Shown: piece by piece, positions 14,246 to 58,828 of the stretch
Numbering within the stretch: position 1 is the first letter of the stretch
Layout of the letters: every line of letters starts with the position of its first letter
DNA from: a bacterium
Lineage (GTDB): Bacteria; Armatimonadota; Zipacnadia; Zipacnadales; UBA11051
Length of the DNA: 64,000 bases
Direction: 5' to 3'
Assembly (NCBI GenBank): GCA_021372615.1
Contig: JAJFUB010000034.1
Location: 34,927 to 98,926, forward strand
Translations under genes and position numbers: made by a program
Notes under the pieces: generated by a model
What the model saw: the letters and a program-made list of their open reading frames with translations, nothing else
The model's database searches: none
What the model was told of the DNA's origin: nothing

Positions 14246-14251
14246 CGCGCC

Positions 14252-14413: not shown

Positions 14414-14457
14414 CGGCCCGCAGGGCCGGGGGTGGGTTGCCGTTCCGGGAGGCTTAC

Positions 14458-17294: not shown

Positions 17295-17347
17295 CGCAGC
17301 CACATCTGGTCGGCCCAAGAGAGAACCTCGAAGGAGATTCCACAGGT

Positions 17348-21699: not shown

Positions 21700-22125
21700 C
21701 TATTCGTCGGCAATCCGGTAGAACTGCCGGTGAGCGTCGTCGGCATACTCCACCCGGCCCTCCTTGAGGACCAGGCACAGGTTCCGTGCGTCGTACAGCA
21801 GGCTCACATCGGTGGCGGGGTCGCCGGACACGACGAGCAGGTCGGCTAGCTTGCCCGGCTCCAGTGTGCCGAGGGAAGGGAGCTTTCGATAGGCGGCGGC
21901 ATTTACCTGCGTCGCGGCGGTGAGGGCCTCCAGGGGCGACAGGCCGCAGGCCACCAGCTCCTGTAGCTCAACCAGTGTGCGGTCGCCCAGGCGCCAGGTG
22001 CGGGGCGTCCCCGGATAGTCGGTGCCGACCCTGGTCGGTAGCGATAGGCAGGGCATTCGGGGCCGTCGCGGCATGACGGAGGTTTCACCACACCGGAGGC
22101 GGGGGCCTGCCCGGCGCCTGGGCAT
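21700..22125 (-). pseudogene. Amidohydrolase-family C-terminal fragment (N-terminal ~300 aa of a normal amidohydrolase missing)
   Basis: Translation ...VGTDYPGTPRTW...LSPLEALTAATQVNAAAYRKLPSLGTLEPGKLADLLVVSGDPATDVSLLYDARNLCLVLKEGRV matches the metal-dependent amidohydrolase C-terminus (GSLEVGKxADLVVLDxNP...V). Only ~110 alignable residues remain before the unrelated divergent promoter at 22126-22196. Confidence 0.45.
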
Positions 22126-32606: not shown

Positions 32607-32760
32607 GTTGACCTCGTCCGTCTGGCCGTGTCGCCCGCGAAGGCCGGCATCTTCCCGCCATCCCCCGCAGGGACCTCCCGCCCAGTCACTTGCCCTCCCC
32701 AAACATCAGAGCCACCCTCGGGGGAGGGTGGCTCTGTGGGTCAACCATGGCGTCGGCCGG

Positions 32761-40327: not shown

Positions 40328-41443
40328 CTACAACCCCGCCTCCAGCCTCACACCCGCCCCCACGAAGCGTGGCGTGTTCACCTCTACCACCACATTGCCA
40401 CTCGACCCCACCACCAGGACTGTTTTCTCCGGCGCCGTGTAGTACAGCCCCGTGCCACGCGGCGTTCCCGCGCCGCGCAGGGCATTGCCGGTCACGACCA
40501 CCATGCCCGTGCCATGCGTCACCGACACCGCGAGGTAGCGATAGGTCGAGGCTGGCTGCTTCTCGCCGCCGAAGTTGAGGATGCGGTTGTGGGCGATGGT
40601 GGAAGCTGCGCCGCCCTGCACGATGGCCTCGATGCCGCACCACGCCCCCGCCTCGTCCGTCTCGCCGAACCCCTCGATGTAGTTGTCACAGATCGAGGTG
40701 CCGAAGAGCCGGTGGGCATAGATGGCCGTGTGCGGCACCCCGTAGATGTGGTTGCGCTCGACCACCCAGCCGGCGGCGTTGTCCATGTGGATGCCGTCGG
40801 CGCCCGAGCTGGCGATCCAGTTGTCGCTCAGGATCCAGTCGGTCACGGAGTTCCCCGGGTCCTCGATGAAGATACCGTGCCGCCCCGAGTTCTCGATGAA
40901 GTTGCCGGAGATGCGCCCGTTCACCTGCGAGTTCTTGAGCCCGACGCCCTTGGCGCTGCGGCTGGTAAGCCGCAAGCCGTCCCCGCCCATGCTCGTGATG
41001 CAGACGTCCTCAACCACGCTCAGCCACGAGCGCAGGACCAGGCCGGCGGTCTGAGCCCCCGGGTTGCCCTTGCGGTTGCCGTTCAGCGTCAGGTGCCGCA
41101 CGGCCACGGGTGTGCCGGTCCACGGCGCGTCATCCAGGTACCCCGCGGAGGCGACGAGCGCGCCAAGGTTCGCCCCGTCCGCCTGCTTGAGGACCGTGCC
41201 CGTACGGCTCTCACCGCGCAGCGACCGCTGCCCGAGCAGGCGGATGGTCTGGTTGACGAGGAACGCCCCGCGGAGCACGACTTCGCTGCCCTCCGGGCTG
41301 GCGGCGATGGCCGCGTTAATGGCGGCGGCATCGGCAGGCGTGCTCGTGCCCACGACGATGATCGGCTCGGCCGCCCGCACGGCCTCCGCCCCCGCACCCC
41401 ACAGGAGAAAGCCGATCAGCGCCAGCCCTCGCCATGTCATCAT
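40328..41443 (-). CDS. Secreted right-handed parallel beta-helix repeat protein (pectate-lyase/GH28-like fold)
   Basis: Signal peptide MMTWRGLALIGFLLWGAGAEA. Repeated NxxGxxI/V motifs (GNFIENSGRHGIFIED, DNWIASSGADGIHMDN, ERNHIYG). Confidence 0.5.
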   Translation of the reverse strand: MMTWRGLALIGFLLWGAGAEAVRAAEPIIVVGTSTPADAAAINAAIAASPEGSEVVLRGAFLVNQTIRLLGQRSLRGESRTGTVLKQADGANLGALVASAGYLDDAPWTGTPVAVRHLTLNGNRKGNPGAQTAGLVLRSWLSVVEDVCITSMGGDGLRLTSRSAKGVGLKNSQVNGRISGNFIENSGRHGIFIEDPGNSVTDWILSDNWIASSGADGIHMDNAAGWVVERNHIYGVPHTAIYAHRLFGTSICDNYIEGFGETDEAGAWCGIEAIVQGGAASTIAHNRILNFGGEKQPASTYRYLAVSVTHGTGMVVVTGNALRGAGTPRGTGLYYTAPEKTVLVVGSSGNVVVEVNTPRFVGAGVRLEAGL

Positions 41444-41575
41444 CGCACCGTCCCTTCGCCTGCCGTTGGAGCGCGGGCTTTCCAGCCCGCGAGCCGTTGT
41501 CGTTGCCGTCCTGCAGGAGAGGGCAGAGCCGGGAGGCCCGCCTCACGTGCGCCGGCCCCTTCGGGACGAACGGCT

Positions 41576-41616
41576 GTGGGAGCGGTCACCCGGTCGCGGT
41601 CGGTGACCGCTCCCAC
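41576..41616. repeat. Perfect 14-bp-stem hairpin gtgggagcggtcac-N13-gtgaccgctcccac containing the 23-mer GGGAGCGGTCACCGACCGCGACC in inverted orientation (41592-41614)
   Basis: Seen directly. It shares the 23-mer exactly with 3221-3243. Intergenic, between the beta-helix gene and the Gfo gene. Confidence 0.6.
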
Positions 41617-41649
41617 ACCCTCCTCATCCCCTCATCCCGCCATCCCGCC

Positions 41650-42648
41650 CTACCTCAGCCGCACCGGTCGCCCCTCTGCCGCCGAGCGGATGAGCGCGTG
41701 CGCCACTTCCAGCGAGGCGAGCACTTCCTCGTGCGTCGGCACCTCGACCGGCAGGCCATGCGTCACGCAGCGCACGAAGTAGCCGATCTCGTCGCGCAGA
41801 GCGCCGACGGTCGCGCCGTAGATCTCCGGCCAGTACGACGTGTCCGGCGTCGTCACCCGGTCCTCCAGCCAGAACCCCAGCCCGTTCCCCGGGACTTCCA
41901 GTAATGCCGTCCCCTTGGTCCCGATCACCTCGCCGAGGATGTGGCCCCGCCACGGGGTCGAGTCGGGCAGCAGCCAGGCCGTCTCCACCACGCCCACCGA
42001 GCCGTCGTCCATCGTGATGATCCCCCAGAACAGGTCATCGCCGAGCCCGCCGACATCGGCGGTGCGCATGTAGACCTCCACCGGCCGGCGGTCGCCGAAG
42101 TACCACAGGATCAGGTCAATGTCGTGGATGCCGGTGGTGTAGAGGAGATTGGACTTGGTGAACTTCGCGCGCATCGCGAGGCTCTGGTTGCGACGGCCGT
42201 AGACGCTGACGACCTTCCCCAGCTCGCCCCGGTCAATGCTCCCCTTGATGGCGGCGCAACGGGTGTCGAAGCGCAGGAGGTGGCCGACCATCATCCGCCG
42301 CCCCAGCTCCCGCGCGCGGGCCACCATCCGCCGCGCCTCGTCCATGTCGTGGCTGAGGGGCTTTTCGACGAAGACATCGCATCCGGCCTCCAGCGCGGCC
42401 ATCACGGGCGCGAAGTGCCGGTTGTCATCGGTGACGACATGGACCGCGTCCAGCTCCACGGCGGCCAACATCGCGTCCACGTCGGGGAAGACGTGCGGCA
42501 CGCCGTAGCGGTCGGCCAGCTCGCGGGCGCGGGCCTCGGTGCGCGACACGAGCGCCACGACCTCAGCGCCGTCGAGCCCGGACAGGACGTCCAGATGCCG
42601 GGCCCCGAAGTCCCCGGCGCCAATGACGGCGAAGCGTTTGCGTTGCAT
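41650..42648 (-). CDS. Gfo/Idh/MocA family oxidoreductase
   Basis: Rossmann FAVIGAGDFGARHL and FVEKP motif. RBS AGGAGG. Confidence 0.8.
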   Translation of the reverse strand: MQRKRFAVIGAGDFGARHLDVLSGLDGAEVVALVSRTEARARELADRYGVPHVFPDVDAMLAAVELDAVHVVTDDNRHFAPVMAALEAGCDVFVEKPLSHDMDEARRMVARARELGRRMMVGHLLRFDTRCAAIKGSIDRGELGKVVSVYGRRNQSLAMRAKFTKSNLLYTTGIHDIDLILWYFGDRRPVEVYMRTADVGGLGDDLFWGIITMDDGSVGVVETAWLLPDSTPWRGHILGEVIGTKGTALLEVPGNGLGFWLEDRVTTPDTSYWPEIYGATVGALRDEIGYFVRCVTHGLPVEVPTHEEVLASLEVAHALIRSAAEGRPVRLR

Positions 42649-42662
42649 GTGGAGGGTGCCTC

Positions 42663-42710
42663 CTACAGGTGCTTCCGGAAGAACTCATGCGCCCGGTTGT
42701 CGGCAAGCAT
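42663..42710 (-). pseudogene. Relic A of esterase 3' end (encodes MLADNRAHEFFRKHL*)
   Basis: Protein-level and ~75% DNA similarity to the last 15 codons of the esterase 49334-50371 (FANNKAHEFFGKYL*). Lies between the APH stop and the Gfo start, and contains the Gfo RBS. Confidence 0.5.
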
Positions 42711-42727
42711 CGGCGGCTGCGCGGTGA

Positions 42728-43690
42728 CTAACCCGGCCCCGCCGCTTCCGGCAGGTAGGCATGGAGGCGCTCGCGCAGGACGCCGAGCTGCTGGTTGATG
42801 AACTCGTCATCCGTTGGGCGTCCGGTGAAGCGTGGCCAGTGTGTCGCAAAGACGGCCATGCGCCACACCTGGCGGGCCACGATGAACCAGGGGAGAGCCG
42901 CGAGCGTGGCCTCGGGCAACGGTCGGATCTCCCGGTAAGCCTGGCAGAAGCCGGCCCACAGGCTCTCGGTCTGGCAGAACAGGCGGCAGACCGCCAGGTC
43001 GTAGGCCCGCCAGCCTGGCCCACCGCAGTCGAAGTCGAACACCCACAGCGTGCCGTCTGTATCCCGGCGGAGGTTGCCGCCGTGGAAGTCGGCGTGGCAG
43101 AACCCCCACTCCAGTGTCGGGGCTTGCGACGCCAGGCCCGTGCGCAATGCCGCCACGGCTTCCGCCACGAAAGCCGCGTCCGTCGGGCGGTGTGCCAGGA
43201 GGCGCAGCACCACCGCGAGTGGCTGGTCGAGCAGGTGCCCCAGATCGAGGCGGAAGCGCTCGTGAGGGCAAGTGAAGCCGTCGGTGTGGCGGTGGATCAG
43301 CGCCATGGTGCGGCCACAGGCACGCAGGGCTTCGGGGTTGGTCAGGTCGGGCGGCTCGCCAGGAGCGTACGGGAACAGCACTGCTGCGCGCGGCCCGTCA
43401 TCGGCCTCAACAACAGTCTGAGCCGCGCCATCGCGCCGGGCGATCGGGCCACAGACCGCGAGCCCGCCCGTCGCCAGGTGGCTGAGCACCGCCAGTTCGT
43501 AGGCGATGTCGGCCGGCGTGCGCCAGCCGCGACGGTACAGCCGCAGCACGTACCGGCCCTGCAGCGACTCGATGAGGTAGTGCGTGTTCAGGCCGTCCTG
43601 GATCAGTTGACAGCTCGCGTTCCTGGCGAGCGGGTAGTGAGGCTGGAGGGCCTCGACCAGGGAGTCCGGACTGGGCGGAGCGTCGGACAT
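42728..43690 (-). CDS. Phosphotransferase enzyme family protein (APH / homoserine-kinase type II-like)
   Basis: ATG 43690 follows GGAG. Brenner-type catalytic motif FCHADFHGGNL and the WVFDFDCGGPG (DFD) motif. The upstream extension to 43807 was rejected. Confidence 0.6.
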   Translation of the reverse strand: MSDAPPSPDSLVEALQPHYPLARNASCQLIQDGLNTHYLIESLQGRYVLRLYRRGWRTPADIAYELAVLSHLATGGLAVCGPIARRDGAAQTVVEADDGPRAAVLFPYAPGEPPDLTNPEALRACGRTMALIHRHTDGFTCPHERFRLDLGHLLDQPLAVVLRLLAHRPTDAAFVAEAVAALRTGLASQAPTLEWGFCHADFHGGNLRRDTDGTLWVFDFDCGGPGWRAYDLAVCRLFCQTESLWAGFCQAYREIRPLPEATLAALPWFIVARQVWRMAVFATHWPRFTGRPTDDEFINQQLGVLRERLHAYLPEAAGPG

Positions 43691-43709
43691 GATGAGAGGC
43701 TCCATTGAG

Positions 43710-43803
43710 CTACAGGTACTCCCGGAAGAACGCATGCGCCTTGCTGTCGGCGAAGGCGTGCTCGCCGGGGTGGACATCGTGCCAGAGGTTCTTGCCGGCG
43801 CCG
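43710..43803 (-). pseudogene. Relic B of esterase 3' end (…LWHDVHPGEHAFADSKAHAFFREYL*)
   Basis: Homologous to esterase C-terminus DLWADIHPGEHMFANNKAHEFFGKYL*. Begins 1 nt after the stop of the LVIVD gene and ends 19 nt before the APH start. Confidence 0.5.
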
Positions 43804-45954
43804 TCACCGCACAGGCTCACGGCTAACCCAGAGCCCGTCGTAACCGGCGGGCAATAGCGCATGGCCTCGGTGCTCAGCCATCAGGCAGGGGTTGCCGGCG
43901 ATAGTGAACTCATCCAGGAGCCGCGGCTGCTTCGGCTCGCCAAGATCCACGATGGTCACGTGGCCTTCAGCGCGGTCAGTCAGGTACAGGGTGTTTCCGA
44001 CCACGACCGGCTTGCCGGTCAGCCGGTGGCCCGCGAGGCCATGGTGCGGCAGCTGTCCCAGGGGACGACGGTCACCCCGCGTGATGATCGTGTACTGACC
44101 GTGAGGTTCGGTGAGCAGCCCGTGGACACCATCGGGCATCACGGCCAGGCCGTTGGTGGGATGCATGGGACCGGGCAGGACGTCGCCCGAGAAGACCGGC
44201 TGGGGGCCGCCGGTCAGGTCAAACCAGTGCGTTCCGCTCACATGCCAGGTGCAGGCCGCGTAGCGCCCCTCGAACAGGCCGTCGGTGATGTTATAGCCGT
44301 AGAGCAGGCCAAGGCGCTGGTCGTGGAACACCTCGCGCGGGTGAGCGGGATCGCTGACATCAAGGATGACCAAGGTGTTCGCGCCCACGTCAATCAGCGC
44401 GAGGGCAAGGCCCGGCGGGACGACCACCTGTTTGACGGACCTGCCCGGCACAGTGAAGCGCCCCTGCAACGCCAACTCCCCGCCGGCCCCGATGCGCCAG
44501 ATTGACAACCCACCGCGCCCCTCGGCCACATAGAGCAGACCGCCGCGCTGTTTGGCGTCTACCGCGAACCCCTCCGTCGGGTAGACCGCTAGTCGCTTGA
44601 GCTCGGGCCACAGGCTGACCCGGTGCAGTCCGGCAACGCCGCACGCGACGAAGGCGTAGTCATCCCGAGCCGTCACGGCGAAGACCTGACCCTCCGGTTG
44701 GTAAATGCTCCAGCCATCGCGCTGCGGTGGCGTGGCCGGGGGAATCTGAACGGCGAGACCAGGCTGCGGGGCGACCGGCCGCGCCATCGGGGCCTCGAGC
44801 ACGTGCAGATCGGTCCACAGCCCGGCCGCATAGACGACGCCCTGGCCGATGGCGAACCCACCGATGGGGGCGGTGTCTTGCCGTTGCTCGATGTAGGGCA
44901 GACGATGGTGGGCCACCACTCGCGGATGGGCCGGGTCCTTCACCTCAATGACGAACAGGCCGCCGTGGTTATCTCCCACATAGACGAACTCACCGGAAAG
45001 CTGCGCATCCCACATGTCCACGCGCAGGCGGTAGAAAGGCGGAAACGGCACCCGCGCGACCGTCTTGGGCTGGCGCGCATCGCTGACATCGAGCACTTCC
45101 AGACCGTGGCCCGCGCCGTAGCGCGGATCGTCGTTGCTGCTGGGCCTCCCCGTGCCGTGGTGATGGCCGGTCGCGGCGAAGCAATGGCCGCCGCGCACAT
45201 CCAGCCCGTCGCCGTAACCGCCAAGCGGCGCATGGGACACGACGGTGGGCAGCCGGGGGTTGCCGACGTCGCAGATCACGACCTCCCGTGTGCCCCATAC
45301 CCCCACGTACAGCATGCAGCCGCGCACGACGCATGACTGCGCCTCGCCGGTCCTGACCGTGCTCAAGTGGCGGGGCTGCGCAGGATCGCGCACGTCCACC
45401 AACTCGACGCCGTAGTGCCGGCAGGCGACGTACACGATCGACCCGCTGACCTCCAGCCCGGTGGCGAGTTCAATCGTGTTGTAGTGGCTGATCAGCCGCG
45501 GCGCCGCCGCGTCCGACGCGTCGATGATGAACAGACCATCCTCGCGGGCAGTGACGAACACACGGTCGCCGCGAACCACGATCTGCCGGTTGTTGCCGAG
45601 ATTGTCGAGACTGCCCAGCACCCTGGGGTGTTGGGGGTCAGACACGCTGCAGACCCACAGGCGCTGCGGCCCGATCACGTAGAGCTTGTCGCCCGCGAGG
45701 GCTGCGTCCATGCAGGGCCCGATCCCGACAGTCCCCACCTCGCGCAGCGGAGGCCCGTAGAGGGAGGAGCTGATCTCGCCCAGGGGCGTGGACTGAGGGT
45801 AGGCGACCATCGTGCCGACACCTCCACACAGCAGCATCGCATAGAGGCAGCGGGCGAGGGCTCGTCGTCGCACACCCGACGTGTTGTGACTGCGCCCCAC
45901 CTTGGTGGCCGTGCGCCCTGTCTCGTCTGAGCTCAGGTCACAAGCCGCTGCCAT
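43804..45954 (-). CDS. LVIVD-repeat beta-propeller protein (secreted/cell-surface, function unknown)
   Basis: Repeated LVIVD-type strands (LYVIG, VYVAC, LYVGV, VYVGD, LFVIEV, AFVACG, LLYVAE, LVILDVSDPAHP). ATG 45954 (second Met of the track ORF) overlaps the stop of relic C. Confidence 0.55.
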   Translation of the reverse strand: MAAACDLSSDETGRTATKVGRSHNTSGVRRRALARCLYAMLLCGGVGTMVAYPQSTPLGEISSSLYGPPLREVGTVGIGPCMDAALAGDKLYVIGPQRLWVCSVSDPQHPRVLGSLDNLGNNRQIVVRGDRVFVTAREDGLFIIDASDAAAPRLISHYNTIELATGLEVSGSIVYVACRHYGVELVDVRDPAQPRHLSTVRTGEAQSCVVRGCMLYVGVWGTREVVICDVGNPRLPTVVSHAPLGGYGDGLDVRGGHCFAATGHHHGTGRPSSNDDPRYGAGHGLEVLDVSDARQPKTVARVPFPPFYRLRVDMWDAQLSGEFVYVGDNHGGLFVIEVKDPAHPRVVAHHRLPYIEQRQDTAPIGGFAIGQGVVYAAGLWTDLHVLEAPMARPVAPQPGLAVQIPPATPPQRDGWSIYQPEGQVFAVTARDDYAFVACGVAGLHRVSLWPELKRLAVYPTEGFAVDAKQRGGLLYVAEGRGGLSIWRIGAGGELALQGRFTVPGRSVKQVVVPPGLALALIDVGANTLVILDVSDPAHPREVFHDQRLGLLYGYNITDGLFEGRYAACTWHVSGTHWFDLTGGPQPVFSGDVLPGPMHPTNGLAVMPDGVHGLLTEPHGQYTIITRGDRRPLGQLPHHGLAGHRLTGKPVVVGNTLYLTDRAEGHVTIVDLGEPKQPRLLDEFTIAGNPCLMAEHRGHALLPAGYDGLWVSREPVR

Positions 45955-46223
45955 CACAGGTACTTCCCAACAAACTCATGCGCCTTGTTGTTCGCGAACA
46001 TGTGCTCTCCGGGATGGATGTCCACCCACAGGTCCTCCTCTACCCCCGCCGCCGCGTAGATCCTCTGGAGCGCCTCAAACCCCGCGAGCTGGTCCTCAAT
46101 GAAGAAGCAGGTGTCGTACACGCCCATCTCGATCAGCAGGGGCCGCGGGGCGATCAGCCCGGCGATGTCGTGCACATCGAAGTACTTGTAGATCTGGGGG
46201 ACTGTCGGGCGATGTGACGACAA
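45954..46223 (-). pseudogene. Relic C: 5'-truncated duplicate of esterase gene 3' end (89 codons, ~90% nt identity to 49334-49600)
   Basis: Translation ...VPQIYKYFDVHDIAGLIAPRPLLIEMGVYDTCFFIEDQLAGFEALQRIYAAAGVEEDLWVDIHPGEHMFANNKAHEFVGKYL is near-identical to the esterase C-terminus. Homology breaks at ~46200. Confidence 0.7.
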
Positions 46224-46310
46224 TAGTTGAGATCACCCCGGTGCGACTGCACCTACCGGCGAGATCCTGCAGCGGACACAGTAACCGCCACTAGCAGCAC
46301 GTCGGCTGCG

Positions 46311-46375
46311 GGTACTCTCCCACGAACCTATGCGCCTCGTCTTCCGCGGACCGGGTGCATGTCGTGCTCTGCAGG
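46311..46375 (-). pseudogene. Relic E: frameshifted decayed copy of esterase 3' end (…EHDMHP… / …AEDEAHRFVGEY…)
   Basis: DNA ggtactctcccacgaacctatgcgcctcgtcttccgcggaccgggtgcatgtcgtgctctgcagg aligns with the esterase 3' end gatacttcccaaagaactcatgcgccttgttgttggcgaacatgtgctcaccggg. Lies just downstream of the GHL10 stop. Confidence 0.4.
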
Positions 46376-46412
46376 CGTTACCCCTCCGCCAAGAAGGCTA
46401 TGGACTATGGCG

Positions 46413-49148
46413 CTACTGCTGGCCCCGACCAGCAGACAGATACTCCCTGCTGCGGACCATGAACGCCTGGCTCGTGCCATCCACAAAGACCATCGCCCCC
46501 GCCGCAGCCACGCGCTGGCCGCCTCCATCTGCAGTTGCCGTCAACCGCACCGTCGCGCTCTTGCCCGGAGCCGGCAGTTCGCCCAGATCGGCCAGCTTCC
46601 TGCCCCCCATGTCCTGCAACTGCAGCCGCCCACTGAAGCTCTTGACTGCCTGGCGGTGCTGGCCCGGCCCGACGACCGTGACCCTCACCCCCCCACCCGC
46701 CACGTCCTCGAAACGCAAATGGGGCCCGTTTTGCGGGATGCTCGCGGGTTTTGAGGTGATCCCTTCCGCGAACTTAGGCAGGCCCTGCATCGCGAGGTCG
46801 TTGCCCATGTTGAAGAGAGCGAAACCGTCAGCGCCGAGGTTCCGCCCCATCTCCATCTGGCCCACAACCGCCTCATCGGGATTGATGAACGAGCCGATTC
46901 CAGGATACAGCGGCACCGTCGCGCCAAGCAGGCTCAGTTGCCCGCGCACCACTGTCTGGAAGGTCTCGTCGTTCACTTCGTAGTCCATCGGGCAGACGAA
47001 ATCCAGGTACCCCTGCTTGCACCACAGCACCCAGTCCTGCCCCAATCTGTCTCTGCAGGCGGGGTAGTCACCGATGGCTGCGGCCGACAACTTGATCCAC
47101 GGCTTGAGCCGGTGAGCAGCCTCCGAGACTGCTTTCACCAGCCGGGTAATCTGGTCGCAACGGAACTGGCGATACTCGGCCTTCAGCGGTCCGCTGTAGC
47201 AGTCCTCCGGCCACTTGGCGATCTTGGCGCCATGCACTGCCTCGAAGCGTTCACGGCAGCCGTCGCAGTAGCAGCTTTCCTCGTCGGGATAGCGGATGTA
47301 GTCGAACTGGAGGCCGTCCATGTCATAGTTGCGCAGCACCTCGAGCAACGCGTCCCGCTCGAGTTCGAAGTTCTTGGGGTGCGAAGGGCATAGCCAGAGA
47401 ATCTCCTCGCCCTTGGCATTGGCCTGCAGGCGGTGCTCAGCGCGCATGCGGCCCACGAAGCTCTCAGGCCCGTCCGGCAAGTACATCACACTCCAACATA
47501 CCTTCCACACATGCACCTCCAGGCCGTACTTCTTGCCTGCCGCCACACACTGGGCGATCTGGTCCCCCTTCTCCTTGAAGTCATCCGAGTGTGGCAGGAG
47601 CTTGCTGTCGTAGTGCGCGAAGCCGCCACCCAGCATGTTGGGCACTACTGTGTTGAAGCCCGCCGCCTTCAGTCGCCGCATCGCCGTGTCCCAGGCGCCA
47701 CAGTCTCCGGTGCCGGAAGCGTTCCAGACGGCGCGGAATTCCACCGTGCGCGACTTGTGGGCCACGAAGTACGCCTCGGCAAGCGCGTCATGGAACTTCT
47801 CTGCCGCCGCTTGCGCCTCTGGATAGCGCTTGTCCGCGAGCAGTCGCCGGGCCGTCGCCTCGGCCACAGTGGCCTGCGCCAATGCCGCCTTCACTTTCGC
47901 GGCAAACGCAGGGTCTTTCTGCGCTGTAGCGACAAAGGCGTCGAACTCGGCCGGGGTCTTGAAGGGGCGTATGTTCCGCGCCTTGGCCAGGTCGCCACTC
48001 ACGACGGCCTCCCATGCCTCGGGTACAAAATGGCCGACCAGCGCCCTTACGAAGGCCAGTTTGGATGCCATTGGCTCCGCGTCAGCCAGTATCTGGCCCA
48101 TGAAGGCCCCATTGTCGCTCACGAGGACTGCGGGGCCTTGGTCCTGCCCTTTCTTGTCGCGCCAGATGCCGATCACGCGGGCGTTGTGTGTCGGCCCCGC
48201 CGCGAAACTCATCTTGCACATCGAGTTCTGAACCATGCTGCTAGGCAGGCCGGGGAGGGCATCGGGCGTGAAGGCTATCTCTGCGAAGTCGTCACGCTTC
48301 ATCCGCTGCGCAAACGAGCGGTTGGCGAGACCAAGCAAGTCCGCCACAGCATCCGGCGCTGCGAAGGCGAACATCACCTTCCCGCCGCCCGCCACGAAGC
48401 CCCTGATCTGCTCAACTGCCTTGTCGCTGAGTTCAGGGCTGAAGGGGAAGATTGCCAGCTTCTGGCCGTGAAGTGTGCCGCTCTCGAGGTCGGTCTCCCC
48501 GATCACATCATGCGCCACGCCGACCTTGGTGAGGAGCCCGCGAAGCATCGTCTCGGCCCACTTGGCCCCGCCAGTGCCTCTGACGCCCTTCATCGAGCCG
48601 GAGATCACGACGACGTCATCCCAACGTGCCTGCAGGTTATCCAGCGCGCAGAAGGTATCCGCAGCATGGGTATCGAGGGGCCAGATGCTGATACGGATGG
48701 CATCCACCGTGTCCCATCCGCCGACATTCCCCTGGGGGAAGAACATGCTCTTGTCCAGCACCACATGCTTCCAGCCCTTGGTCGGGATGAACCAGCCGTG
48801 GTACCAAGCCTGTCCGCTGCGGAAATACAGAGTGCCGCTCTTTACGACCGTCGGGTCGTCGCAGTAGAGGTCGAAGGTGATGGTGCGGGCGCGCGACAGG
48901 TCGAGCTTGACCTGCTTGTCAAACGACCCGCGCTCCAATCCTGGGTCGGTGAAGGGGCAGGGCAGCTTCAAGGCCATACCGTCGTCATGGGGCATGATCT
49001 CGGCCGGGCGCGAGCCATTCGCGTCCACCCAGGCGGCCCGCAAGGCCGCGACATCCGGGTAGTTGAAGTCATCAATGGTGCTGACTTCGGCTGCCAGACA
49101 TCCCCCGGCCATCGCCAGCAAGGAGAGCCCGAGCAATGTCGTGCGCAT
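46413..49148 (-). CDS. Secreted glycoside-hydrolase-like family 10 (GHL10 / DUF187, PF02638-like) TIM-barrel protein with N-terminal accessory domains
   Basis: ATG 49148 follows AGGAGG and encodes signal peptide MRTTLLGLSLLAMAGGCLAA. GHL10 hallmark YDMDGLQFDYIRYPDEESCYCDGCRERFE. The upstream extension to 49241 and antisense ORF 47433-49274 were rejected. Confidence 0.6.
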   Translation of the reverse strand: MRTTLLGLSLLAMAGGCLAAEVSTIDDFNYPDVAALRAAWVDANGSRPAEIMPHDDGMALKLPCPFTDPGLERGSFDKQVKLDLSRARTITFDLYCDDPTVVKSGTLYFRSGQAWYHGWFIPTKGWKHVVLDKSMFFPQGNVGGWDTVDAIRISIWPLDTHAADTFCALDNLQARWDDVVVISGSMKGVRGTGGAKWAETMLRGLLTKVGVAHDVIGETDLESGTLHGQKLAIFPFSPELSDKAVEQIRGFVAGGGKVMFAFAAPDAVADLLGLANRSFAQRMKRDDFAEIAFTPDALPGLPSSMVQNSMCKMSFAAGPTHNARVIGIWRDKKGQDQGPAVLVSDNGAFMGQILADAEPMASKLAFVRALVGHFVPEAWEAVVSGDLAKARNIRPFKTPAEFDAFVATAQKDPAFAAKVKAALAQATVAEATARRLLADKRYPEAQAAAEKFHDALAEAYFVAHKSRTVEFRAVWNASGTGDCGAWDTAMRRLKAAGFNTVVPNMLGGGFAHYDSKLLPHSDDFKEKGDQIAQCVAAGKKYGLEVHVWKVCWSVMYLPDGPESFVGRMRAEHRLQANAKGEEILWLCPSHPKNFELERDALLEVLRNYDMDGLQFDYIRYPDEESCYCDGCRERFEAVHGAKIAKWPEDCYSGPLKAEYRQFRCDQITRLVKAVSEAAHRLKPWIKLSAAAIGDYPACRDRLGQDWVLWCKQGYLDFVCPMDYEVNDETFQTVVRGQLSLLGATVPLYPGIGSFINPDEAVVGQMEMGRNLGADGFALFNMGNDLAMQGLPKFAEGITSKPASIPQNGPHLRFEDVAGGGVRVTVVGPGQHRQAVKSFSGRLQLQDMGGRKLADLGELPAPGKSATVRLTATADGGGQRVAAAGAMVFVDGTSQAFMVRSREYLSAGRGQQ

Positions 49149-49333
49149 GGTTCGCCTCCTGTGGTATGGGCCAGCCGCACTTCCGTGGCAGGGAAGCCCA
49201 ACCTGCCAACAAACAGAAGCCGACCCATCGGGCTCCGGCAAGTTGGGGCGGGGCGGAGGCGAATTCTACCGTGAGAATGGTCTCCCAATCCGTTGTCGCC
49301 AAAGGCCATTCCCGCAGGCCATAGCCGCCTCAC

Positions 49334-50371
49334 CTACAGATACTTCCCAAAGAACTCATGCGCCTTGTTGTTGGCGAACATGTGCTCACCGGGGTGGATG
49401 TCCGCCCACAAGTCCTCCTCGGCCCCCGCCGCCGCGTAGATCTTCTTCAGCGCCTCCCAGCCCGCAAGCTGGTCCTCAATGAAGAAGCACGTGTCGTATA
49501 CGCCCATCTCGATCAGCAGGGGCCGCGGGGCGATGAGACCGGCGATGTCGTGCACATCGAAGTACTTGTAGATCTGCGGCACCATCTGGCTGCCGCACCA
49601 GTTGGCTCGGTTGATCGCGAACCCCTGCCACGGGTTCAGGTAGCCGATGATGTCGGCGCACTTGATCCGCGGCTCGGCGGCCGTGGCGAAGGTCGTCATC
49701 GTCCCGCCCTGGCTCAGGCCCATCATCCCGATGCGGTCTGGGTCCACCTCTGCCCGCGTCTGCAGGTAGTCCACGCAGCACTTCATGTCCCAGATGTTGA
49801 GCATCAGCGTGTAGACGCCGAACATCGCGCCGCGCAGGAAGTGGACATTGCACTTGTCGCGGCCGGGGTACGGGTTGTTGCCGTCGGCCCGCTCGCCGAA
49901 GACCCGCAGGTCCGGGCTGATCGTCAGGTAGCCATCCAGGGCCATGATCTCGCCGTAGTTGTAGTTGTGCTGGGTGATGCTGGCGGCCATGTCGGGCGTG
50001 GTGCGGTTGCCCGCGACGGGCTCCTTGCCGTACAGGCCGTGCCCGTGGCTGCACAGGATCGCGGGGTTGCTCCCATCGGTCGGCATGTCCTTGTGGCGCA
50101 GGACGATGCAGGGCACGGACATGTGCTCTTCGGAGTCGAAGATGACCCGCTCGCGGACCAGTCCGCTGGGCTCCTCGACGCTGAAGATGACCTCGGGCTC
50201 AGGGTCCACCGGCTCGGGGAAATCCCCGAGCAGCTCGAAGAACTTCTCACTGGCCTTGGCCTGCCAGTCCTCGAACTCAGCCAGGCTCGAGCCCCGGAAG
50301 GTGAGCAGCGGCGTCCAGTTCTCCGCCATCTTGTTGAAGTATGCGATCATCGAGAAGTTGCGCTTGGCCAT
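49334..50371 (-). CDS. Alpha/beta-hydrolase fold esterase (dienelactone hydrolase / acetyl-xylan-esterase-like)
   Basis: Nucleophile elbow GLSQGG with acid/His region ...DTCFFIED...HPGEHMF. ATG 50371 (MAKRNF...) has better RBS spacing than GTG 50380. Confidence 0.6.
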   Translation of the reverse strand: MAKRNFSMIAYFNKMAENWTPLLTFRGSSLAEFEDWQAKASEKFFELLGDFPEPVDPEPEVIFSVEEPSGLVRERVIFDSEEHMSVPCIVLRHKDMPTDGSNPAILCSHGHGLYGKEPVAGNRTTPDMAASITQHNYNYGEIMALDGYLTISPDLRVFGERADGNNPYPGRDKCNVHFLRGAMFGVYTLMLNIWDMKCCVDYLQTRAEVDPDRIGMMGLSQGGTMTTFATAAEPRIKCADIIGYLNPWQGFAINRANWCGSQMVPQIYKYFDVHDIAGLIAPRPLLIEMGVYDTCFFIEDQLAGWEALKKIYAAAGAEEDLWADIHPGEHMFANNKAHEFFGKYL

Positions 50372-50412
50372 CTGCGGCACTCCCTTTCGCCTCGGGTTGG
50401 CAGTATGTCACA

Positions 50413-51516
50413 TCATCGCGTCATCTGCGGGTTGCACATCTCGCCGACGGCCGCGACCATCGCCCGGAAGTTCTCGGGCGGGATAGGCGGGTTGATCTCG
50501 CTGGAGGTGGCGACGAACATGCCGCCGGTGCGCAGGGCGTCGGTCTCGCGGATATGCCGCAGCACCTCGGCCCGGACCTGCTCGGGCGTGCCGCGCTCCA
50601 TCAGGTCCACCCCGTCCACACCGCCGGCCCACACCATCTGCGGCCACGCCTGCTTGAGCCCCACGATCTCCATGCCCACCCCCGGCTCCAGGCAGTAGAA
50701 GCCGTCCACGCCGCAGGCCATCAGGTCCGGCAGGGCCTTCCGGTAGTTGCCGTCGCTGTGGTACAGCACCTTCACCCCGGCCGCGTGCCAGGCGGCGGTC
50801 ACCTGCTCCACGTACGGGTAGTGGAAGCGGGCCAGGAAGTCCGGCGGGAAGATGGGGCCCTGCTTGGTGGCGAAGTCCTCGGCGAGGAGGATGACCGGCG
50901 ACAGCTCGCCGTCCGCGACCGCTCGCACCCACTCCAGGCGCCGCGCTCCGCTGGCCGCCATGTACCGCGCGAAGACCTCGGGGTAGTCGTAGGTGAAGTA
51001 CGAGAACAGCTCCAGGCCCATCGCATCATAGGCGGAACAGAAGCCCACGTCGTGGTACTTGAGGATCACGGTCTCACCGATCTGCGCTTGCAGGCCGGTC
51101 ATGTAGCGGCGCCACTCCGCGCGGGCCGGGGCCGGCTCGATCACCTGGGCCTCGAGCGCCTCGGTCCGTCGCACCAGCCAATCCCGCGCCCCCTCGGTCG
51201 TGTCGAAGGGACGGCTTACGCGCCACGCCGTCCAGTTGTCGTTCTGGTACACGAAGCCGTCTTCCGTCGTGACGCGCCCCGTGCCGCGGGGCGCCACCGG
51301 CGGCATGATGAGGTCGGTGGTCTGGCGGATCACCGCGCAGATGTCCTGCACGGTGTAGTCGAAGCCCTCGATCGTTCTGCCGGTCCAGTCGGCGATGACC
51401 CGCGGGTTGTAGCTGAGCTGCTCCAGGATCGGCACGCGGTCCACCGGCTGCAGGTTCAGGGCGGCCTCGACCCGCTCACGCTTGGACATGACATCGGTGG
51501 GGAAGAGGCGTTCCAT
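50413..51516 (-). CDS. URO-D family protein (third paralogue in window)
   Basis: ATG 51516 follows GGAGG. Translation MERLFPTDVMSKRERVEAALNLQPVDRVPILEQL...YHSDGNYRKALPDLMACGVDGFYCLEP... is typical of URO-D/MtaA TIM-barrel proteins. The upstream extension to 51744 was rejected. Confidence 0.6.
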   Translation of the reverse strand: MERLFPTDVMSKRERVEAALNLQPVDRVPILEQLSYNPRVIADWTGRTIEGFDYTVQDICAVIRQTTDLIMPPVAPRGTGRVTTEDGFVYQNDNWTAWRVSRPFDTTEGARDWLVRRTEALEAQVIEPAPARAEWRRYMTGLQAQIGETVILKYHDVGFCSAYDAMGLELFSYFTYDYPEVFARYMAASGARRLEWVRAVADGELSPVILLAEDFATKQGPIFPPDFLARFHYPYVEQVTAAWHAAGVKVLYHSDGNYRKALPDLMACGVDGFYCLEPGVGMEIVGLKQAWPQMVWAGGVDGVDLMERGTPEQVRAEVLRHIRETDALRTGGMFVATSSEINPPIPPENFRAMVAAVGEMCNPQMTR

Positions 51517-51566
51517 GGGGCGGGGCCTCCACAGGGATGGGAGCGCGGCTGCCAGCGGTCCCGGGG

Positions 51567-52673
51567 CTACCACTTCGCGGGCGCGTAGGCGACTTCGAGG
51601 CGGCTCGTGAGGCCGGGGCGCCCGCAGACATTCACGGGCCGGACCTCCAGCACGTTTTCCCCTTCGCGCAGCGGCCAGTCGAGCGTGGCGGGGCGCGTCT
51701 GCCACACGCCGCCATCCACGCGCGTCTCGAAGTGGTCGAACCACGGCATGCAGTGCTCCAGTGACACGGTCAGGTTCGGCCCGTCGGCCCAGGCAGCCTG
51801 CGCGGACAGGCGCACCATGTTCACCGTCCAGTACAGGTCATCGGGGTTGTCGGTCAGCACGCCCGTGCCGCCAGGGGCGAAGTGGCTGACGAAGCCGGGC
51901 AGGCAGCGCCGGTCGAGCCACGTCCAGCGCCCTACGGTCAGGCGCGCGTAGTAGTCGAGCGCGCGGTGGCGGACGAAGCGCCGGCACAGGTGTGCCGCCT
52001 CCTGCTCGCTGAAGTGGTCCATGTTCGGCATGAGCTTGCTGACCAGCCCGACGTGCTCGCCCACCGGGAGCGTGAACGGGGGCTCCTCCTGCACTACCGT
52101 CACCGCCTCGGCCTCGTGGGCCAGCCACGCCTCGTGTATCTCCAGCGCCGACAGGGGCACGCCGTCGCGCTCGTAGTGCAGGTTGAGGTCCGGGTCGAGG
52201 AGGACCCACTTGCGGTACTGGTTGGACCAGATCTCCGGCACGCTGTGGCCGACGTTGCCGACATTGTGCCCGCGCGGGAAGGCGCTGTCCCGCACACCGA
52301 TGCTCAGCGGCCGCGCCACCCAACCCAGCGCCCGGGCGCCTTCCACGAAGACCCGGCTATAGAAGCCGCAGTTGAAGTGCTCCCCGCGGTCGGCCTCATG
52401 CAGGATGTCCAGGGCATCCCGGACGGTGTTGAAGCATAGCGACCAGCCATGATCCCAGCGCGACCGCACCCACCGCTGTAGCGTGCGCTGGGCCTCAAAC
52501 TCAGTCGCGTAGCCGGCCACGACGTCGTCGAGGCCGTACTCCTCGCGCACCTGCATCGTGCGCGGGGCCAGCGGGTCGCCGTAGTCCATCTGCGTGAAGT
52601 CGCCGACGAAGGCCGGCAGGTCGCAGCGGATGATCTCGAAGTCGCCGGGGATGCCGTGCCTGTCTTCGCTCAT
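51567..52673 (-). CDS. Transglutaminase-like (Cys-His-Asp papain-like) domain protein
   Basis: RBS AAGGAG. Core motif GEHFNCGFYSRVFVEGARALGWVARPL (nucleophile Cys) followed by GHNVGNVGHSVPEIW...VLLDPD (His and Asp). Confidence 0.5.
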   Translation of the reverse strand: MSEDRHGIPGDFEIIRCDLPAFVGDFTQMDYGDPLAPRTMQVREEYGLDDVVAGYATEFEAQRTLQRWVRSRWDHGWSLCFNTVRDALDILHEADRGEHFNCGFYSRVFVEGARALGWVARPLSIGVRDSAFPRGHNVGNVGHSVPEIWSNQYRKWVLLDPDLNLHYERDGVPLSALEIHEAWLAHEAEAVTVVQEEPPFTLPVGEHVGLVSKLMPNMDHFSEQEAAHLCRRFVRHRALDYYARLTVGRWTWLDRRCLPGFVSHFAPGGTGVLTDNPDDLYWTVNMVRLSAQAAWADGPNLTVSLEHCMPWFDHFETRVDGGVWQTRPATLDWPLREGENVLEVRPVNVCGRPGLTSRLEVAYAPAKW

Positions 52674-58590: not shown

Positions 58591-58712
58591 CGCCAACTCC
58601 TTTGCGACCATGTCGCCGCGTGATTCAGGTGGGCGGGCACCCCCGCCTGCCCCCGGATGGTCCGGTCTCGGTACGCACACCCCTCCGGTTCGGGATGCGC
58701 CGCCCGCAGACC

Positions 58713-58751
58713 TTGTCCGGCGGCCTACAGCTTCCTCCCCGCGCCGGACAA
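58713..58751. promoter_or_regulatory. Perfect 10-bp inverted repeat TTGTCCGGCG-N19-CGCCGGACAA in divergent promoter region
   Basis: Seen directly in the 238-bp intergenic region between the head of the minus-strand gene array (58590) and the SDR gene (58829). Confidence 0.35.
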
Positions 58752-58828
58752 TCCTGCGCTTGTCACCGGCGACGCGGTGTTCTACACTCGGGCTGCCCAA
58801 CCCTTCGTGTCGGGCAGGAGGGACCGTC

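What the first reader, a model, noticed from the sequence alone, without database searches (positions are those of the whole stretch)
42663..50371. Serial relics of one esterase gene 3' end scattered behind consecutive minus-strand genes
The alpha/beta-hydrolase esterase at 49334-50371 ends ...EDLWADIHPGEHMFANNKAHEFFGKYL*. Four further copies of this 3' end occur downstream on the same strand, each directly behind a different gene. Relic E (~46311-46375, frameshifted) and relic C (45954-46223, 89 codons, ~90% nt identity) follow GHL10. Relic B (43710-43803, ...HDVHPGEHAFADSKAHAFFREYL*) follows the LVIVD gene. Relic A (42663-42710, MLADNRAHEFFRKHL*) follows the APH gene. Each relic stops within 0-19 nt of the next start codon; relic C stop overlaps the LVIVD ATG, and relic A contains the Gfo RBS. 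Divergence increases with distance from the intact gene. Two scenarios fit. One is successive site-specific insertions of single-gene cassettes into the esterase 3' end, each displacing the old 3' end (integrative-element-like accretion, but with no recombinase visible). The other is an ancestral tandem array of esterase-X gene pairs in which all but one esterase were deleted, leaving 3' ends that now provide RBS or coupling signals.
Basis: seen in the sequence. Interest (0 to 1): 0.65.

Follow-up and report, generated by a model that had tools for sequence, protein, structure and literature searches.

The report
Esterase-tail relics mark serial gene insertions
Behind a conserved esterase gene of an uncultured Armatimonadota bacterium, three foreign genes have been inserted one after another, each leaving a leftover copy of the esterase's last codons; related strains carry different genes or none at the same spot, so it is a gene-collecting hotspot that resembles an integron but has no visible recombinase.

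Summary
Three copies of the esterase 3' end are statistically solid: relic C (nhmmer E=7e-78), relic B (4e-19) and relic A (4e-8). Relic E is marginal. All copies end in register at the esterase stop codon.

Comparative data settle what this is. A 97%-identical relative (L082) has esterase directly followed by Gfo, with the same stop/RBS/start junction as relic A plus Gfo. Another 97% relative (L081) has three different cassettes at this site, two of them followed by their own relics. At least five more Armatimonadia loci carry other cassettes behind esterase-tail relics, including toxin-antitoxin, Imm26, DUF6891, RsgA, methyltransferase and FGE-sulfatase genes.

- Cassette genes are compact and co-oriented with the esterase.
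- Their GC3 is lower than that of the resident esterase in 13 of 13 cases.
- Relic C diverged under purifying selection (dN/dS 0.1), so it came from a functional esterase of another lineage. Relics B and A are decaying.

I found no recombinase in the 64 kb window, no attC-like folding, and variable relic lengths.

Best reading: serial insertion at the esterase tail, driven by recombination anchored in tail homology, with deletion trimming the redundant esterase copies. A recombinase acting in trans is not excluded. I rate this a new variant of a known kind, comparable to icd/e14, SCC and integron arrays.

The parts
50413..51504 (-). URO-D-like gene. This is the conserved upstream neighbour of the esterase and forms the left flank of the hotspot.
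   Evidence: Pfam URO-D. It is 93-98% identical and in the same position in L081 and L082. GC3 is 0.945.
49334..50371 (-). Intact alpha/beta-hydrolase (carbohydrate-esterase-like) gene. Its last ~260 nt are the repeated unit.
   Evidence: Pfam Abhydrolase_7, GCE_fung and AXE1. It is 97% identical to the L081 and L082 esterases. GC3 is 0.936. Against L082, the tail has dS 0.30 versus 0.15 for the 5' part, and the C-terminus is FFGKYL rather than FFRKYL.
46413..49241 (-). Cassette 1 (newest): GHL10-family glycoside-hydrolase-like gene. The likely start is the ATG near 49148.
   Evidence: Pfam GHL10. GC3 is 0.81, against 0.91-0.95 for the flanking genes. It is absent from L081 and L082.
46311..46375 (-). 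Relic E: a doubtful, heavily decayed copy of the esterase tail with an internal deletion and no stop codon.
   Evidence: nhmmer E=0.83. Smith-Waterman p of about 0.003-0.02.
46204..46275 (-). Non-esterase flank abutting relic C. It contains the motif CAACTATTGYYGT...GAC, which is shared with L167 and, in inverted orientation, with L028.
   Evidence: Smith-Waterman score against the L167 flank is 31, versus shuffles of 14.4 +/- 2.2. The motif is found only at esterase breakpoints in three loci.
45954..46210 (-). Relic C: esterase codons 267-348 plus the stop codon. The reading frame is intact.
   Evidence: blastn 89.8% (E=6e-97); tblastn 92.7%. dN 0.037 and dS 0.389 against the window's esterase. 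NCBI annotates the ORF as an 89-aa alpha/beta hydrolase (P0121).
43804..45957 (-). Cassette 2: LVIVD-repeat beta-propeller gene. The true start is probably near 45873.
   Evidence: Pfam LVIVD. GC3 is 0.83. The best homologues are 64-67% identical and lie in other contexts without an esterase. The C-terminus aligns to the last residue, so the cassette ends at the gene's native stop codon.
43710..43803 (-). Relic B: the last 30 esterase codons plus the stop. It starts 0-2 nt after the LVIVD stop codon.
   Evidence: nhmmer E=4e-19, matching profile positions 180-272. It is closest to the L085-type tail (dN 0.105, dS 0.33).
42728..43702 (-). Cassette 3 (oldest): APH-family phosphotransferase gene.
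   Evidence: Pfam APH. GC3 is 0.85. A GGAG motif lies 9 nt before the ATG, 19 nt after the relic B stop.
42663..42710 (-). Relic A: the last 15 esterase codons plus the stop. This is the displaced original esterase end. Its stop overlaps the Gfo ribosome-binding site (TAGGAGG).
   Evidence: nhmmer E=4e-8. It is colinear with the L082 esterase tail, 14-nt spacer and Gfo start. dN/dS is about 0.7 against L082.
41650..42648 (-). Gfo/Idh/MocA oxidoreductase gene. This is the native downstream neighbour of the esterase and forms the right flank of the hotspot.
   Evidence: Pfam. It is 96% identical and directly follows the esterase in L082, and 87% identical in L008. GC3 is 0.92.

Best explanation
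The esterase 3' end is a strain-variable gene-insertion hotspot in one Armatimonadia subclade. In the window's lineage the ancestral order was urod-esterase-Gfo-beta-helix. Three horizontally acquired, promoterless genes, all co-oriented with the esterase, were then added between esterase and Gfo: APH first, then LVIVD, then GHL10. Each event recombined inside the esterase tail. A complete esterase was kept upstream of the newcomer, and a copy of the former tail was left downstream of it. The relics therefore form a stratigraphic series: A is the original end, C the most recent.

The most likely mechanism, which is inferred and not shown, is host recombination anchored in esterase homology. 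One route is single-crossover (Campbell-type, or unequal) integration of DNA that carries an esterase tail next to a foreign gene. The other is homology-facilitated illegitimate recombination from relatives whose esterase has a different downstream neighbour. The redundant esterase sequence is then trimmed by deletion. That trimming cannot run into the upstream cassette, or into the stop/RBS region that serves the next gene. Once a cassette is flanked by two tails, it can be lost, moved or exchanged between strains by recombination between tails.

Shown: the insertion polarity, the foreign origin of the cassettes, recurrence in relatives, and recombination within tails. Inferred: the enzymology, and the absence of any dedicated recombinase.
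For: - **Empty site.** L082 (esterase 97% identical) has esterase immediately followed by Gfo (96%). Its sequence ...gagttcttccggaagtacctgTAGgaggcaccctccacATG equals relic A plus the Gfo start.
- **Different cassettes at the same site.** L081 (97%) has an unknown 289-aa gene, RsgA and DUF6891, with relics of 187 and 96 nt behind the first two. L083/L001 have a DUF4258 plus zinc-ribbon toxin-antitoxin pair and a 96-nt relic. L085 has Imm26 and an unknown gene with 80- and 58-nt relics. L006, L008, L167 and L169 have others.
- **Restricted distribution.** Among 141 loci with a full-length esterase, relics occur only in this subclade.
- **Foreign composition.** 13 of 13 cassette genes have lower GC3 than the esterase of the same locus.
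- **Orientation and expression.** All cassette genes are co-oriented with the esterase. No promoter-like or terminator-like site lies between esterase and Gfo on the coding strand.
- **Relic C came from a working gene.** Its dN/dS is 0.10, the same as between functional esterases. Relics B and A have ratios of 0.3-0.7.
- **Relics derive from different esterase lineages** (NJ tree).
- **The same cassette moves independently of its upstream tail.** The RsgA cassette is about 92% identical between L081 (second position) and L086 (directly after the esterase) from the stop codon onward. The tails in front of it are only about 77% identical.
- **Mosaic relics.** In L081_r1 the last 56 nt are identical to the resident tail, while 21 of the 127 nt upstream differ. 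L085_r1 and L081_r2 behave similarly. This points to crossover or gene conversion inside the tails.
- **Deletion erosion seen directly** in L167_r, L168_r and L169.
- **No recombinase or transposase** among about 40 of the 44 predicted genes in the window. No recombinase is consistently linked in the other long loci.
- **No attC-like fold**.
Against: - No donor genome with esterase-GHL10, esterase-LVIVD or esterase-APH adjacency was found. The best LVIVD homologues are 64-67% identical and are not next to an esterase.
- Cassettes are very compact. In 5 of 8 the gene's stop codon lies 17 nt or less from the relic boundary, which random illegitimate joints do not predict.
- Relic 5' boundaries cluster at two positions. 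Esterase codon 266/267 is seen in four relics, one truncated esterase and two contig ends. Position -96 is seen in four relics. That hints at site preference.
- Three 97%-identical strains carry 0, 3 and at least 3 wholly different cassettes. This implies a turnover rate that is high for rare illegitimate events.
- The shortest relic (48 nt at 82% identity) is a poor substrate for RecA.
- L082 is a 3-kb metagenome contig. An assembly short-circuit through the repeat is unlikely but cannot be excluded.
Confidence: 0.6

Rival explanations
1. An integron- or SCC-like system in which a dedicated site-specific recombinase, encoded elsewhere in the genome, uses a site within the esterase tail. Circular single-gene cassettes, each carrying a tail copy, are integrated and excised by it.
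For: - The units are compact, promoterless and co-oriented, each holding one gene or one toxin-antitoxin pair and bounded by the same repeat.
- The cargo is typical of cassette arrays: toxin-antitoxin, Imm26, DUF6891 and unknown genes.
- Turnover at strain level is high.
- The same cassette sits in different array positions, with the boundary exactly at the repeat's end.
- Relic boundaries recur at the same positions.
- A 10-bp palindrome, CTTCCGGAAG, lies in the shared core.
- L006 has a large serine recombinase gene 150 nt upstream of its esterase.
Against: - There is no recombinase in the 64 kb window, and none is consistently linked in L167, L169 or L081-L085.
- Repeat lengths vary from 48 to 257 nt.
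- Single-strand folding is no better than shuffles, with z from -0.7 to +1.7.
- The terminal 30 nt of the relics are not more conserved than the rest (p=0.85).
- The L006 recombinase sits on the 5' side of the esterase, at the edge of a prophage-like segment.
- No esterase tail was found in viral contigs.
Confidence: 0.25
2. An ancestral tandem array of esterase-X gene pairs. All but one esterase were deleted, and the 3' ends were kept because they carry RBS or translational-coupling signals. No new insertions occurred.
For: - Tandem full-length esterase pairs exist (L015, 70% identical to each other).
- Deletion-type junctions are seen in L167, L168 and L169.
- The stop codon of relic A overlaps the Gfo RBS.
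Against: - There is an empty site in one 97% relative and entirely different cassettes in another.
- Cassette GC3 is foreign in 13 of 13 cases.
- Relics stem from different esterase lineages than the resident gene.
- At least 13 distinct cassettes would each need an ancestral esterase partner.
- The relics carry no internal indels, as random erosion of full copies would produce.
Confidence: 0.07
3. The relics are remnants of larger integrative or transposable elements that target the esterase gene, in the manner of e14 in icd. These elements would have carried a replacement 3' end, and later lost their integrase and most of their genes.
For: - The architecture matches icd/icdC: the target gene's 3' end is duplicated with mostly synonymous differences (PMC13626634).
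- A shared 26-33-nt motif abuts the esterase 3' part in the window (46204-46229) and in L167.
- The same motif abuts the esterase 5' fragment in L028 in inverted orientation, like terminal inverted repeats of one element inserted at codon 266/267.
Against: - No integrase or transposase debris lies in any of more than 15 cassettes.
- The motif accompanies only two of about 14 relics, and no second end was found in the window or in L167.
- L028 shows no transposase within 8 kb of the break.
- The other relic boundaries have no shared flank.
Confidence: 0.06

Closest known systems
icd / icdC with prophage e14 (and phage 21) in E. coli
   Same: An insertion into the 3' part of a protein-coding gene supplies a new functional 3' end. 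The old end is left as a C-terminal pseudogene fragment on the far side of the insert. Differences between the two ends are mostly synonymous. Recombination between the two copies restores a chimeric gene (PMC13626634; compare relic C at dN/dS 0.1).
   Different: e14 is a 15-kb element with its own integrase and a single fixed att core. Here the inserts are single genes without a recombinase. Up to four relics are stacked, and their lengths differ.
Integron cassette arrays (including integrase-less CALIN arrays) and rAID-1 arrays of Bacteroidales
   Same: These are arrays of compact, promoterless, co-oriented single-gene cassettes separated by a recurring sequence. The cargo is rich in toxin-antitoxin, immunity and unknown genes, the GC content is skewed, and the content varies between strains (10.1101/471110).
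   Different: The recurring sequence here is the 3' end of a protein-coding gene, not a structured attC. No IntI- or XerD-type recombinase is adjacent, and no hairpin is predicted.
SCC elements at the 3' end of rlmH (orfX) in staphylococci (from my own knowledge, not checked in a paper here)
   Same: Elements accrete in tandem at the 3' end of a conserved gene. Each junction is marked by a direct repeat derived from that gene's end. Some units lack recombinase genes and depend on recombinases supplied in trans.
   Different: SCC repeats are about 15-18 bp with a fixed crossover by CcrAB. The elements are kilobases long and hold many genes. Here the repeats are 48-257 nt, and the only large serine recombinase seen (L006) lies on the other side of the esterase.
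Rhs / CdiA orphan arrays of displaced 3' tips (from my own knowledge)
   Same: Successive acquisitions displace the previous 3' end of a conserved gene. The displaced ends pile up downstream as a historical series.
   Different: There, the displaced piece encodes a variable toxin tip plus its immunity gene, and the repeat is an internal conserved motif. Here the repeat is the invariant extreme C-terminus, and the new material lies after the stop codon.
Homology-facilitated illegitimate recombination, or additive integration with a one-sided anchor (described for naturally transformable bacteria; hits, papers not read)
   Same: A conserved gene serves as the homology anchor that lets non-homologous neighbouring DNA enter. 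No dedicated recombinase is needed.
   Different: It is known mainly from laboratory crosses. Serial natural arrays that leave a stack of anchor-gene tails have not, to my knowledge, been described. The microhomology joints could not be tested here because no donors were found.

Membership tests
Integron | An intI tyrosine recombinase with attI next to the array | tested here: not met
   Pfam scans of about 40 of the 44 predicted genes in the 64-kb window found no integrase, recombinase or transposase.
Integron | attC sites: imperfect inverted repeats that fold as single strands, with RYYYAAC / GTTRRRY cores | tested here: not met
   DNA folding of four relics on both strands gave z-scores from -0.7 to +1.7 against shuffles. 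By inspection, the tail has no GTTRRRY core.
Integron | Compact, promoterless, co-oriented cassettes, each bounded by the recombination site, with content that varies between strains | tested here: met
   All cassette genes in 8 loci are co-oriented with the esterase. Spacers are mostly under 25 nt. The 97% relatives have different content.
Integrative element with 3'-end replacement (e14/icd type) | A direct duplication of the target gene's 3' end flanks the insert, and the upstream copy completes a functional gene | tested here: met
Integrative element with 3'-end replacement (e14/icd type) | The element encodes its own integrase next to one att site | tested here: not met
   The cassettes hold one gene or one toxin-antitoxin pair, and none is a recombinase.
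Integrative element with 3'-end replacement (e14/icd type) | A single fixed crossover core, so that the repeats are of equal length | tested here: inconclusive
   Boundaries lie at -257, -243, -187, -96 (four times), -80, -58 and -48. Two positions recur, while the others are scattered.
SCC-like accretion by large serine recombinases | A Ccr-type large serine recombinase, acting in cis or in trans | tested here: inconclusive
   None is present in the window. L006 has a Resolvase+Recombinase protein directly 5' of its esterase, at the edge of a prophage-like region. No link to the tail site has been shown.
Homology-anchored (HFIR or Campbell-type) additive integration | Crossover within the anchor homology, producing mosaic anchor copies | tested here: met
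   L081_r1 has 0 of 56 mismatches at its 3' end against 21 of 127 upstream. L085_r1 (p=3e-4) and L081_r2 (p=5e-3) behave similarly. The window's esterase tail has dS 0.30 against 0.15 for its 5' part.
Homology-anchored (HFIR or Campbell-type) additive integration | An illegitimate joint with microhomology to donor sequence at the non-anchored end | not testable with these tools
   No donor with 90% or higher identity to any window cassette was found. The collection scans were exhausted.
Tandem duplication followed by pseudogene decay | The intervening genes are native (host composition) and the array is shared by close relatives | tested here: not met
   Cassette GC3 is 0.69-0.90 against 0.85-0.96 for the resident esterase of the same locus, lower in 13 of 13 cases. 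L082 is empty and L081 differs.

The most novel reading that the evidence does not exclude
The esterase tail is the recombination site of a previously undescribed gene-capture platform. It would work like an integron, in that single-gene cassettes (toxin-antitoxin, immunity genes, enzymes) are inserted, excised and exchanged among Armatimonadia strains. Its 'att' site, however, is the 3' end of a protein-coding gene that each event rebuilds. The platform would be driven either by an unlinked recombinase or by tail-to-tail homologous recombination alone. The recurrent boundaries at codon 266/267 and at -96, and the inverted-repeat motif at esterase breakpoints, would be its mechanistic footprints.
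Probability: 0.25. Interest if true: 0.8.

Novelty: new variant of a known kind. Interest (0 to 1): 0.6.

Why it matters
**A rare readable record.** The order, the origin (another esterase lineage) and the relative age of successive horizontal gene gains can all be read directly from displaced gene ends at this one site.

**A simple route to an integron-like array.** If the mechanism is ordinary recombination anchored in a conserved gene tail, then integron-like cassette arrays can arise without any dedicated machinery. That would offer a general route for building operon-embedded accessory gene arrays. The carbohydrate-active genes added here to a glycan-degradation operon are an example.

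**A possible new system.** If a recombinase is involved instead, this would be a new integration system in a barely studied phylum.

**Practical consequences.** Such relics are annotated as small 'alpha/beta hydrolase family proteins'. They also break metagenome contigs, so recognising them improves both annotation and assembly interpretation.

Tried and rejected
- **Exact-protein lookup of the esterase.** It is not on record.
- **attC-like folding of the relics.** No better than shuffles.
- **Extra conservation of the terminal 30 nt of relics**, as a sign of a core site. None found.
- **A promoter inside the esterase tail** that could explain retention of the relics. No sigma-70-like site in 42600-50500.
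- **Known RNA families in 41000-52000.** None.
- **Esterase or esterase tail on viral contigs**, as evidence for a phage attP. None. The inverted-repeat motif is also absent from viral contigs.
- **Donor search through LVIVD homologues.** The closest are 64-67% identical, in unrelated contexts and without esterase tails.
- **The flank of relic C as a fragment of the urod 5' end** (as in L168). Nucleotide alignment to the window's urod is not significant. The idea holds only for L168.
- **The long relics as one inherited relic lineage.** Rejected, because they branch with different functional esterase lineages.
- **Assembly chimera as an explanation.** Rejected for three reasons. Relic boundaries join non-homologous sequence. 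The relics differ from the resident tails. The same structures recur in independent assemblies (L001/L083 and L169/L170).
- **Literature on Armatimonadota and integrons.** Nothing relevant.
Full report

The window has 68.7% G+C. Positions 38.4-52.7 kb carry a run of minus-strand genes. In order these are transglutaminase-like, URO-D-like ('urod'), an alpha/beta-hydrolase esterase (49334-50371), GHL10, LVIVD, APH, Gfo/Idh/MocA, a beta-helix protein and a heparinase-like protein.

Searching the esterase against the whole window finds three further copies of its 3' end and nothing else.
- Relic C (45954-46210): 255 nt at 89.8% (E=6e-97); 82 codons at 92.7%.
- Relic B (43710-43803): 83% over 65 nt (E=7e-14).
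- Relic A (42663-42710): 82% over 49 nt (E=7e-8).

A profile of the last 273 nt of 16 esterase genes gives E=7e-78, 4e-19 and 4e-8 for these three. Relic E (46311-46375) reaches only E=0.83 with that profile, and p of about 0.003-0.02 in a Smith-Waterman/shuffle test. It is plausible as a decayed copy but is not established.

All copies are in register without indels, and their homology stops exactly at the stop codon.

The claim that every relic abuts the next start codon holds for B to APH (19 nt) and A to Gfo (14 nt, with TAGGAGG overlapping the stop). For LVIVD, three things place the start about 80-240 nt downstream. These are the homologue alignments, a signal-peptide-like N-terminus, and the NCBI annotation of this very protein (P0001, 635 aa).

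**2. What the relatives show**

Esterase homologues were collected from reference genomes (L001-L080) and from metagenomes (L081-L160). The closest belong to Armatimonadia / 'Candidatus Zipacnadia' MAGs.

- **L082 (esterase 97% identical)** has urod, esterase, Gfo (96%) and the beta-helix gene with nothing inserted. Its esterase end, stop, 14-nt spacer and Gfo start match relic A plus the Gfo start of the window almost base for base. Relic A is therefore the displaced original esterase end.
- **The window's present esterase end** is FFGKYL, followed by TAGgtgagg. This differs from the FFRKYL type of L082, L081 and relic A. The last 246 nt of the window's esterase are twice as diverged from L082 at synonymous sites as the first 789 nt (dS 0.30 against 0.15).
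- **L081 (also 97%)** has at the same place a 289-aa unknown gene, a 187-nt relic, an RsgA GTPase, a 96-nt relic and a DUF6891 gene.
- **L083/L001 (90%)** have a DUF4258 plus zinc-ribbon toxin-antitoxin pair and a 96-nt relic.
- **L085 (84%)** has Imm26, an 80-nt relic, an unknown gene and a 58-nt relic.
- **L008** has a toxin-antitoxin pair and an eroded relic before Gfo.
- **L006** has two cassettes (an unknown 407-aa gene and an FGE-sulfatase), each followed by a relic, and then an LRR gene.
- **L167** has a methyltransferase and a relic.
- **L169** has a 785-aa gene between two relics.

When each of 141 loci was searched with its own esterase tail, relics appeared only in this subclade.

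**3. Properties of the inserts**

- All cassette genes are co-oriented with the esterase.
- Spacers are short. In 5 of 8 cassettes the gene's stop codon lies within 17 nt of the following relic. The LVIVD protein aligns to homologues through its last residue, and relic B begins 0-2 nt later.
- On the coding strand, no sigma-70-like promoter or intrinsic terminator is predicted from the esterase through to Gfo. No Rfam family matches.
- GC3 of the window's cassettes is 0.81-0.85, against 0.91-0.95 for urod, esterase, Gfo, the beta-helix and the heparinase genes.
- Across seven loci, 13 of 13 cassette genes have lower GC3 than the resident esterase.

**4. Properties of the relics**

- Relic C differs from the window's esterase at 23 of its 246 coding positions, but at only 6 of 82 residues. 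dN is 0.037 and dS 0.389, a ratio of 0.10, the same as between functional esterases. It therefore diverged as part of a working gene in another lineage and has hardly decayed since.
- Relic B is closest to an L085-type tail (ratio about 0.3).
- Relic A has a ratio of about 0.7 against L082 and is decaying.
- Long relics do not form a clade of their own. Each branches with a different functional esterase lineage. L169_r2 lies far from the resident L169 esterase.
- Several relics are mosaics. L081_r1 is identical to the resident tail over its last 56 nt but differs at 21 of the 127 positions upstream. L085_r1 and L081_r2 behave similarly.
- The RsgA cassette is about 92% identical between L081 (second in the array) and L086 (directly after the esterase) from the stop codon onward. 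The tails in front of it are only about 77% identical.

Tails therefore recombine, and a cassette can change its upstream tail.

**5. Mechanism**

No integrase, recombinase or transposase was found among about 40 of the 44 predicted genes of the window. None is consistently linked in the other long loci. L006 has a large serine recombinase, but on the 5' side of its esterase, at the edge of a prophage-like segment. L169 has a DDE_3 transposase beyond the array.

The relics do not fold better than shuffled sequence. Their last 30 nt are not more conserved than the rest. Their lengths vary from 48 to 257 nt. These results speak against a classical integron or a single fixed att core.

Deletion is clearly at work:
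- L167's relic lacks its 3' end and is fused to the C-terminal part of an HTH gene.
- L168 has lost most of urod and esterase through a deletion. It joined urod codon 20 to esterase codon 267 at a shared valine-proline (VP) codon pair.
- L169's esterase is frameshifted.
- L015 carries two full-length tandem esterases.

I therefore favour recombination anchored in esterase homology. This could be Campbell-type or unequal integration of DNA carrying a tail plus a foreign gene, or homology-facilitated illegitimate recombination. Deletion then trims the redundant esterase copy, and cassettes are later exchanged or lost by tail-to-tail recombination.

My confidence that this is a serial insertion hotspot is about 0.85. 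My confidence in the homology-driven mechanism is about 0.45. The overall figure I report is 0.6.

**6. What does not fit**

Relic 5' boundaries cluster.
- Esterase codon 266/267 is the boundary of relic C, L167_r, L168_r and L169_r2. The truncated esterase of L028 ends there, and so do two metagenome contigs (L137, L139).
- Position -96 is the boundary of relic B, L081_r2, L083_r1 and L169_r1.

A 26-33-nt motif (CAACTATTGYYGTTAGGTGACYWGAC) abuts the esterase 3' part in the window (46204-46229) and in L167. It abuts the esterase 5' fragment of L028 in inverted orientation, as the two ends of one inserted element would. I found no complete copy, no transposase next to it and no match in viral contigs.

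These observations, the tight cassette boundaries and the very fast turnover among 97% relatives keep two rival explanations alive. One is a recombinase acting in trans; the other is a target-specific mobile element.

**7. Comparison with known systems**

The architecture is that of icd/icdC around prophage e14 (PMC13626634), repeated serially and without an integrase. The organisation and cargo resemble integron and rAID-1 arrays (10.1101/471110), but without attC or an adjacent recombinase. The accretion at a gene's 3' end resembles SCC elements at rlmH, and the displaced-end logic resembles Rhs/CdiA orphan arrays (both from my own knowledge). I found no description of such arrays in Armatimonadota.

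I rate it a new variant of a known kind, with interest 0.6.

Noticed in passing
window 46204-46275 (minus strand); L167 4035-4092; L028 10790-10815: A motif CAACTATTGYYGTTAGGTGACYWGAC sits at esterase breakpoints. It is direct, in front of the esterase 3' part, in the window and in L167. It is inverted, behind the esterase 5' fragment, in L028. This looks like the terminal inverted repeats of a mobile element that inserts at esterase codon 266/267. No complete element was found.
   Followed up: partly
est codon 266/267 (window ~49580; L028 10788; ends of L137 and L139; L168 1097; L169 9040): The same position in the esterase gene is a breakpoint in at least seven independent sequences. They comprise relic starts, one truncated esterase, one deletion joint to urod, and two contig ends in esterases only 58-61% identical to the window's. 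The cause is not explained.
   Followed up: partly
L006 2665-9853: A prophage-like, low-GC3 segment lies immediately 5' of the esterase in another Armatimonadia MAG. It carries a DNA methyltransferase and a large serine recombinase (Resolvase+Recombinase domains). The same MAG also holds the truncated esterase of L028.
   Followed up: partly
window 21700-22125 (minus strand): A 141-aa ORF matches only the C-terminal end of the amidohydrolase profile (positions 268-343 of 345). It ends 13 nt before the GH127 gene (19780-21687). This may be another gene-tail fragment left in front of an inserted gene.
   Followed up: no
window 18797-19768 (minus strand): A TIR-domain (ThsB-like) protein with low GC3 (0.80) lies directly downstream of GH127, among glycan-degradation genes. 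It is possibly an acquired defence gene. L169 also has a TIR-ankyrin gene right after an esterase relic.
   Followed up: no
window 8888-8925 / 36513-36550; 8961-8990; 3219-3246 / 41589-41616; 14218-14275 / 14391-14446; hairpin 41572-41620: Short intergenic repeats (28-58 nt, 86-96% identical), some in inverted pairs, are scattered over the window. They resemble REP-like or terminator hairpin elements. One lies between Gfo and the beta-helix gene.
   Followed up: no
window 45954-46223 (minus strand): The public annotation of this contig calls the relic C ORF an 89-aa 'alpha/beta hydrolase family protein' (P0121). About 20 similar short relic or partial ORFs exist in the protein collection.
   Followed up: partly
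window 23-532, 17267-18394, 50413-51504; 5720-6763, 9067-10083, 31506-32702, 41650-42648: The window holds three URO-D-like paralogues and four Gfo/Idh/MocA paralogues. They are interspersed with GH95, GH127, DUF4838, GH123-like, BNR-sialidase-like and heparinase-like genes. The region is a large glycan-utilisation neighbourhood with much paralogy.
   Followed up: no
window 55904-56054 vs 58114-58264: There is a 150-nt stretch of 72% similarity between two DegT/DnrJ/EryC1 aminotransferase genes (55100-56380 and 57280-58860). They are neighbouring paralogues.
   Followed up: no
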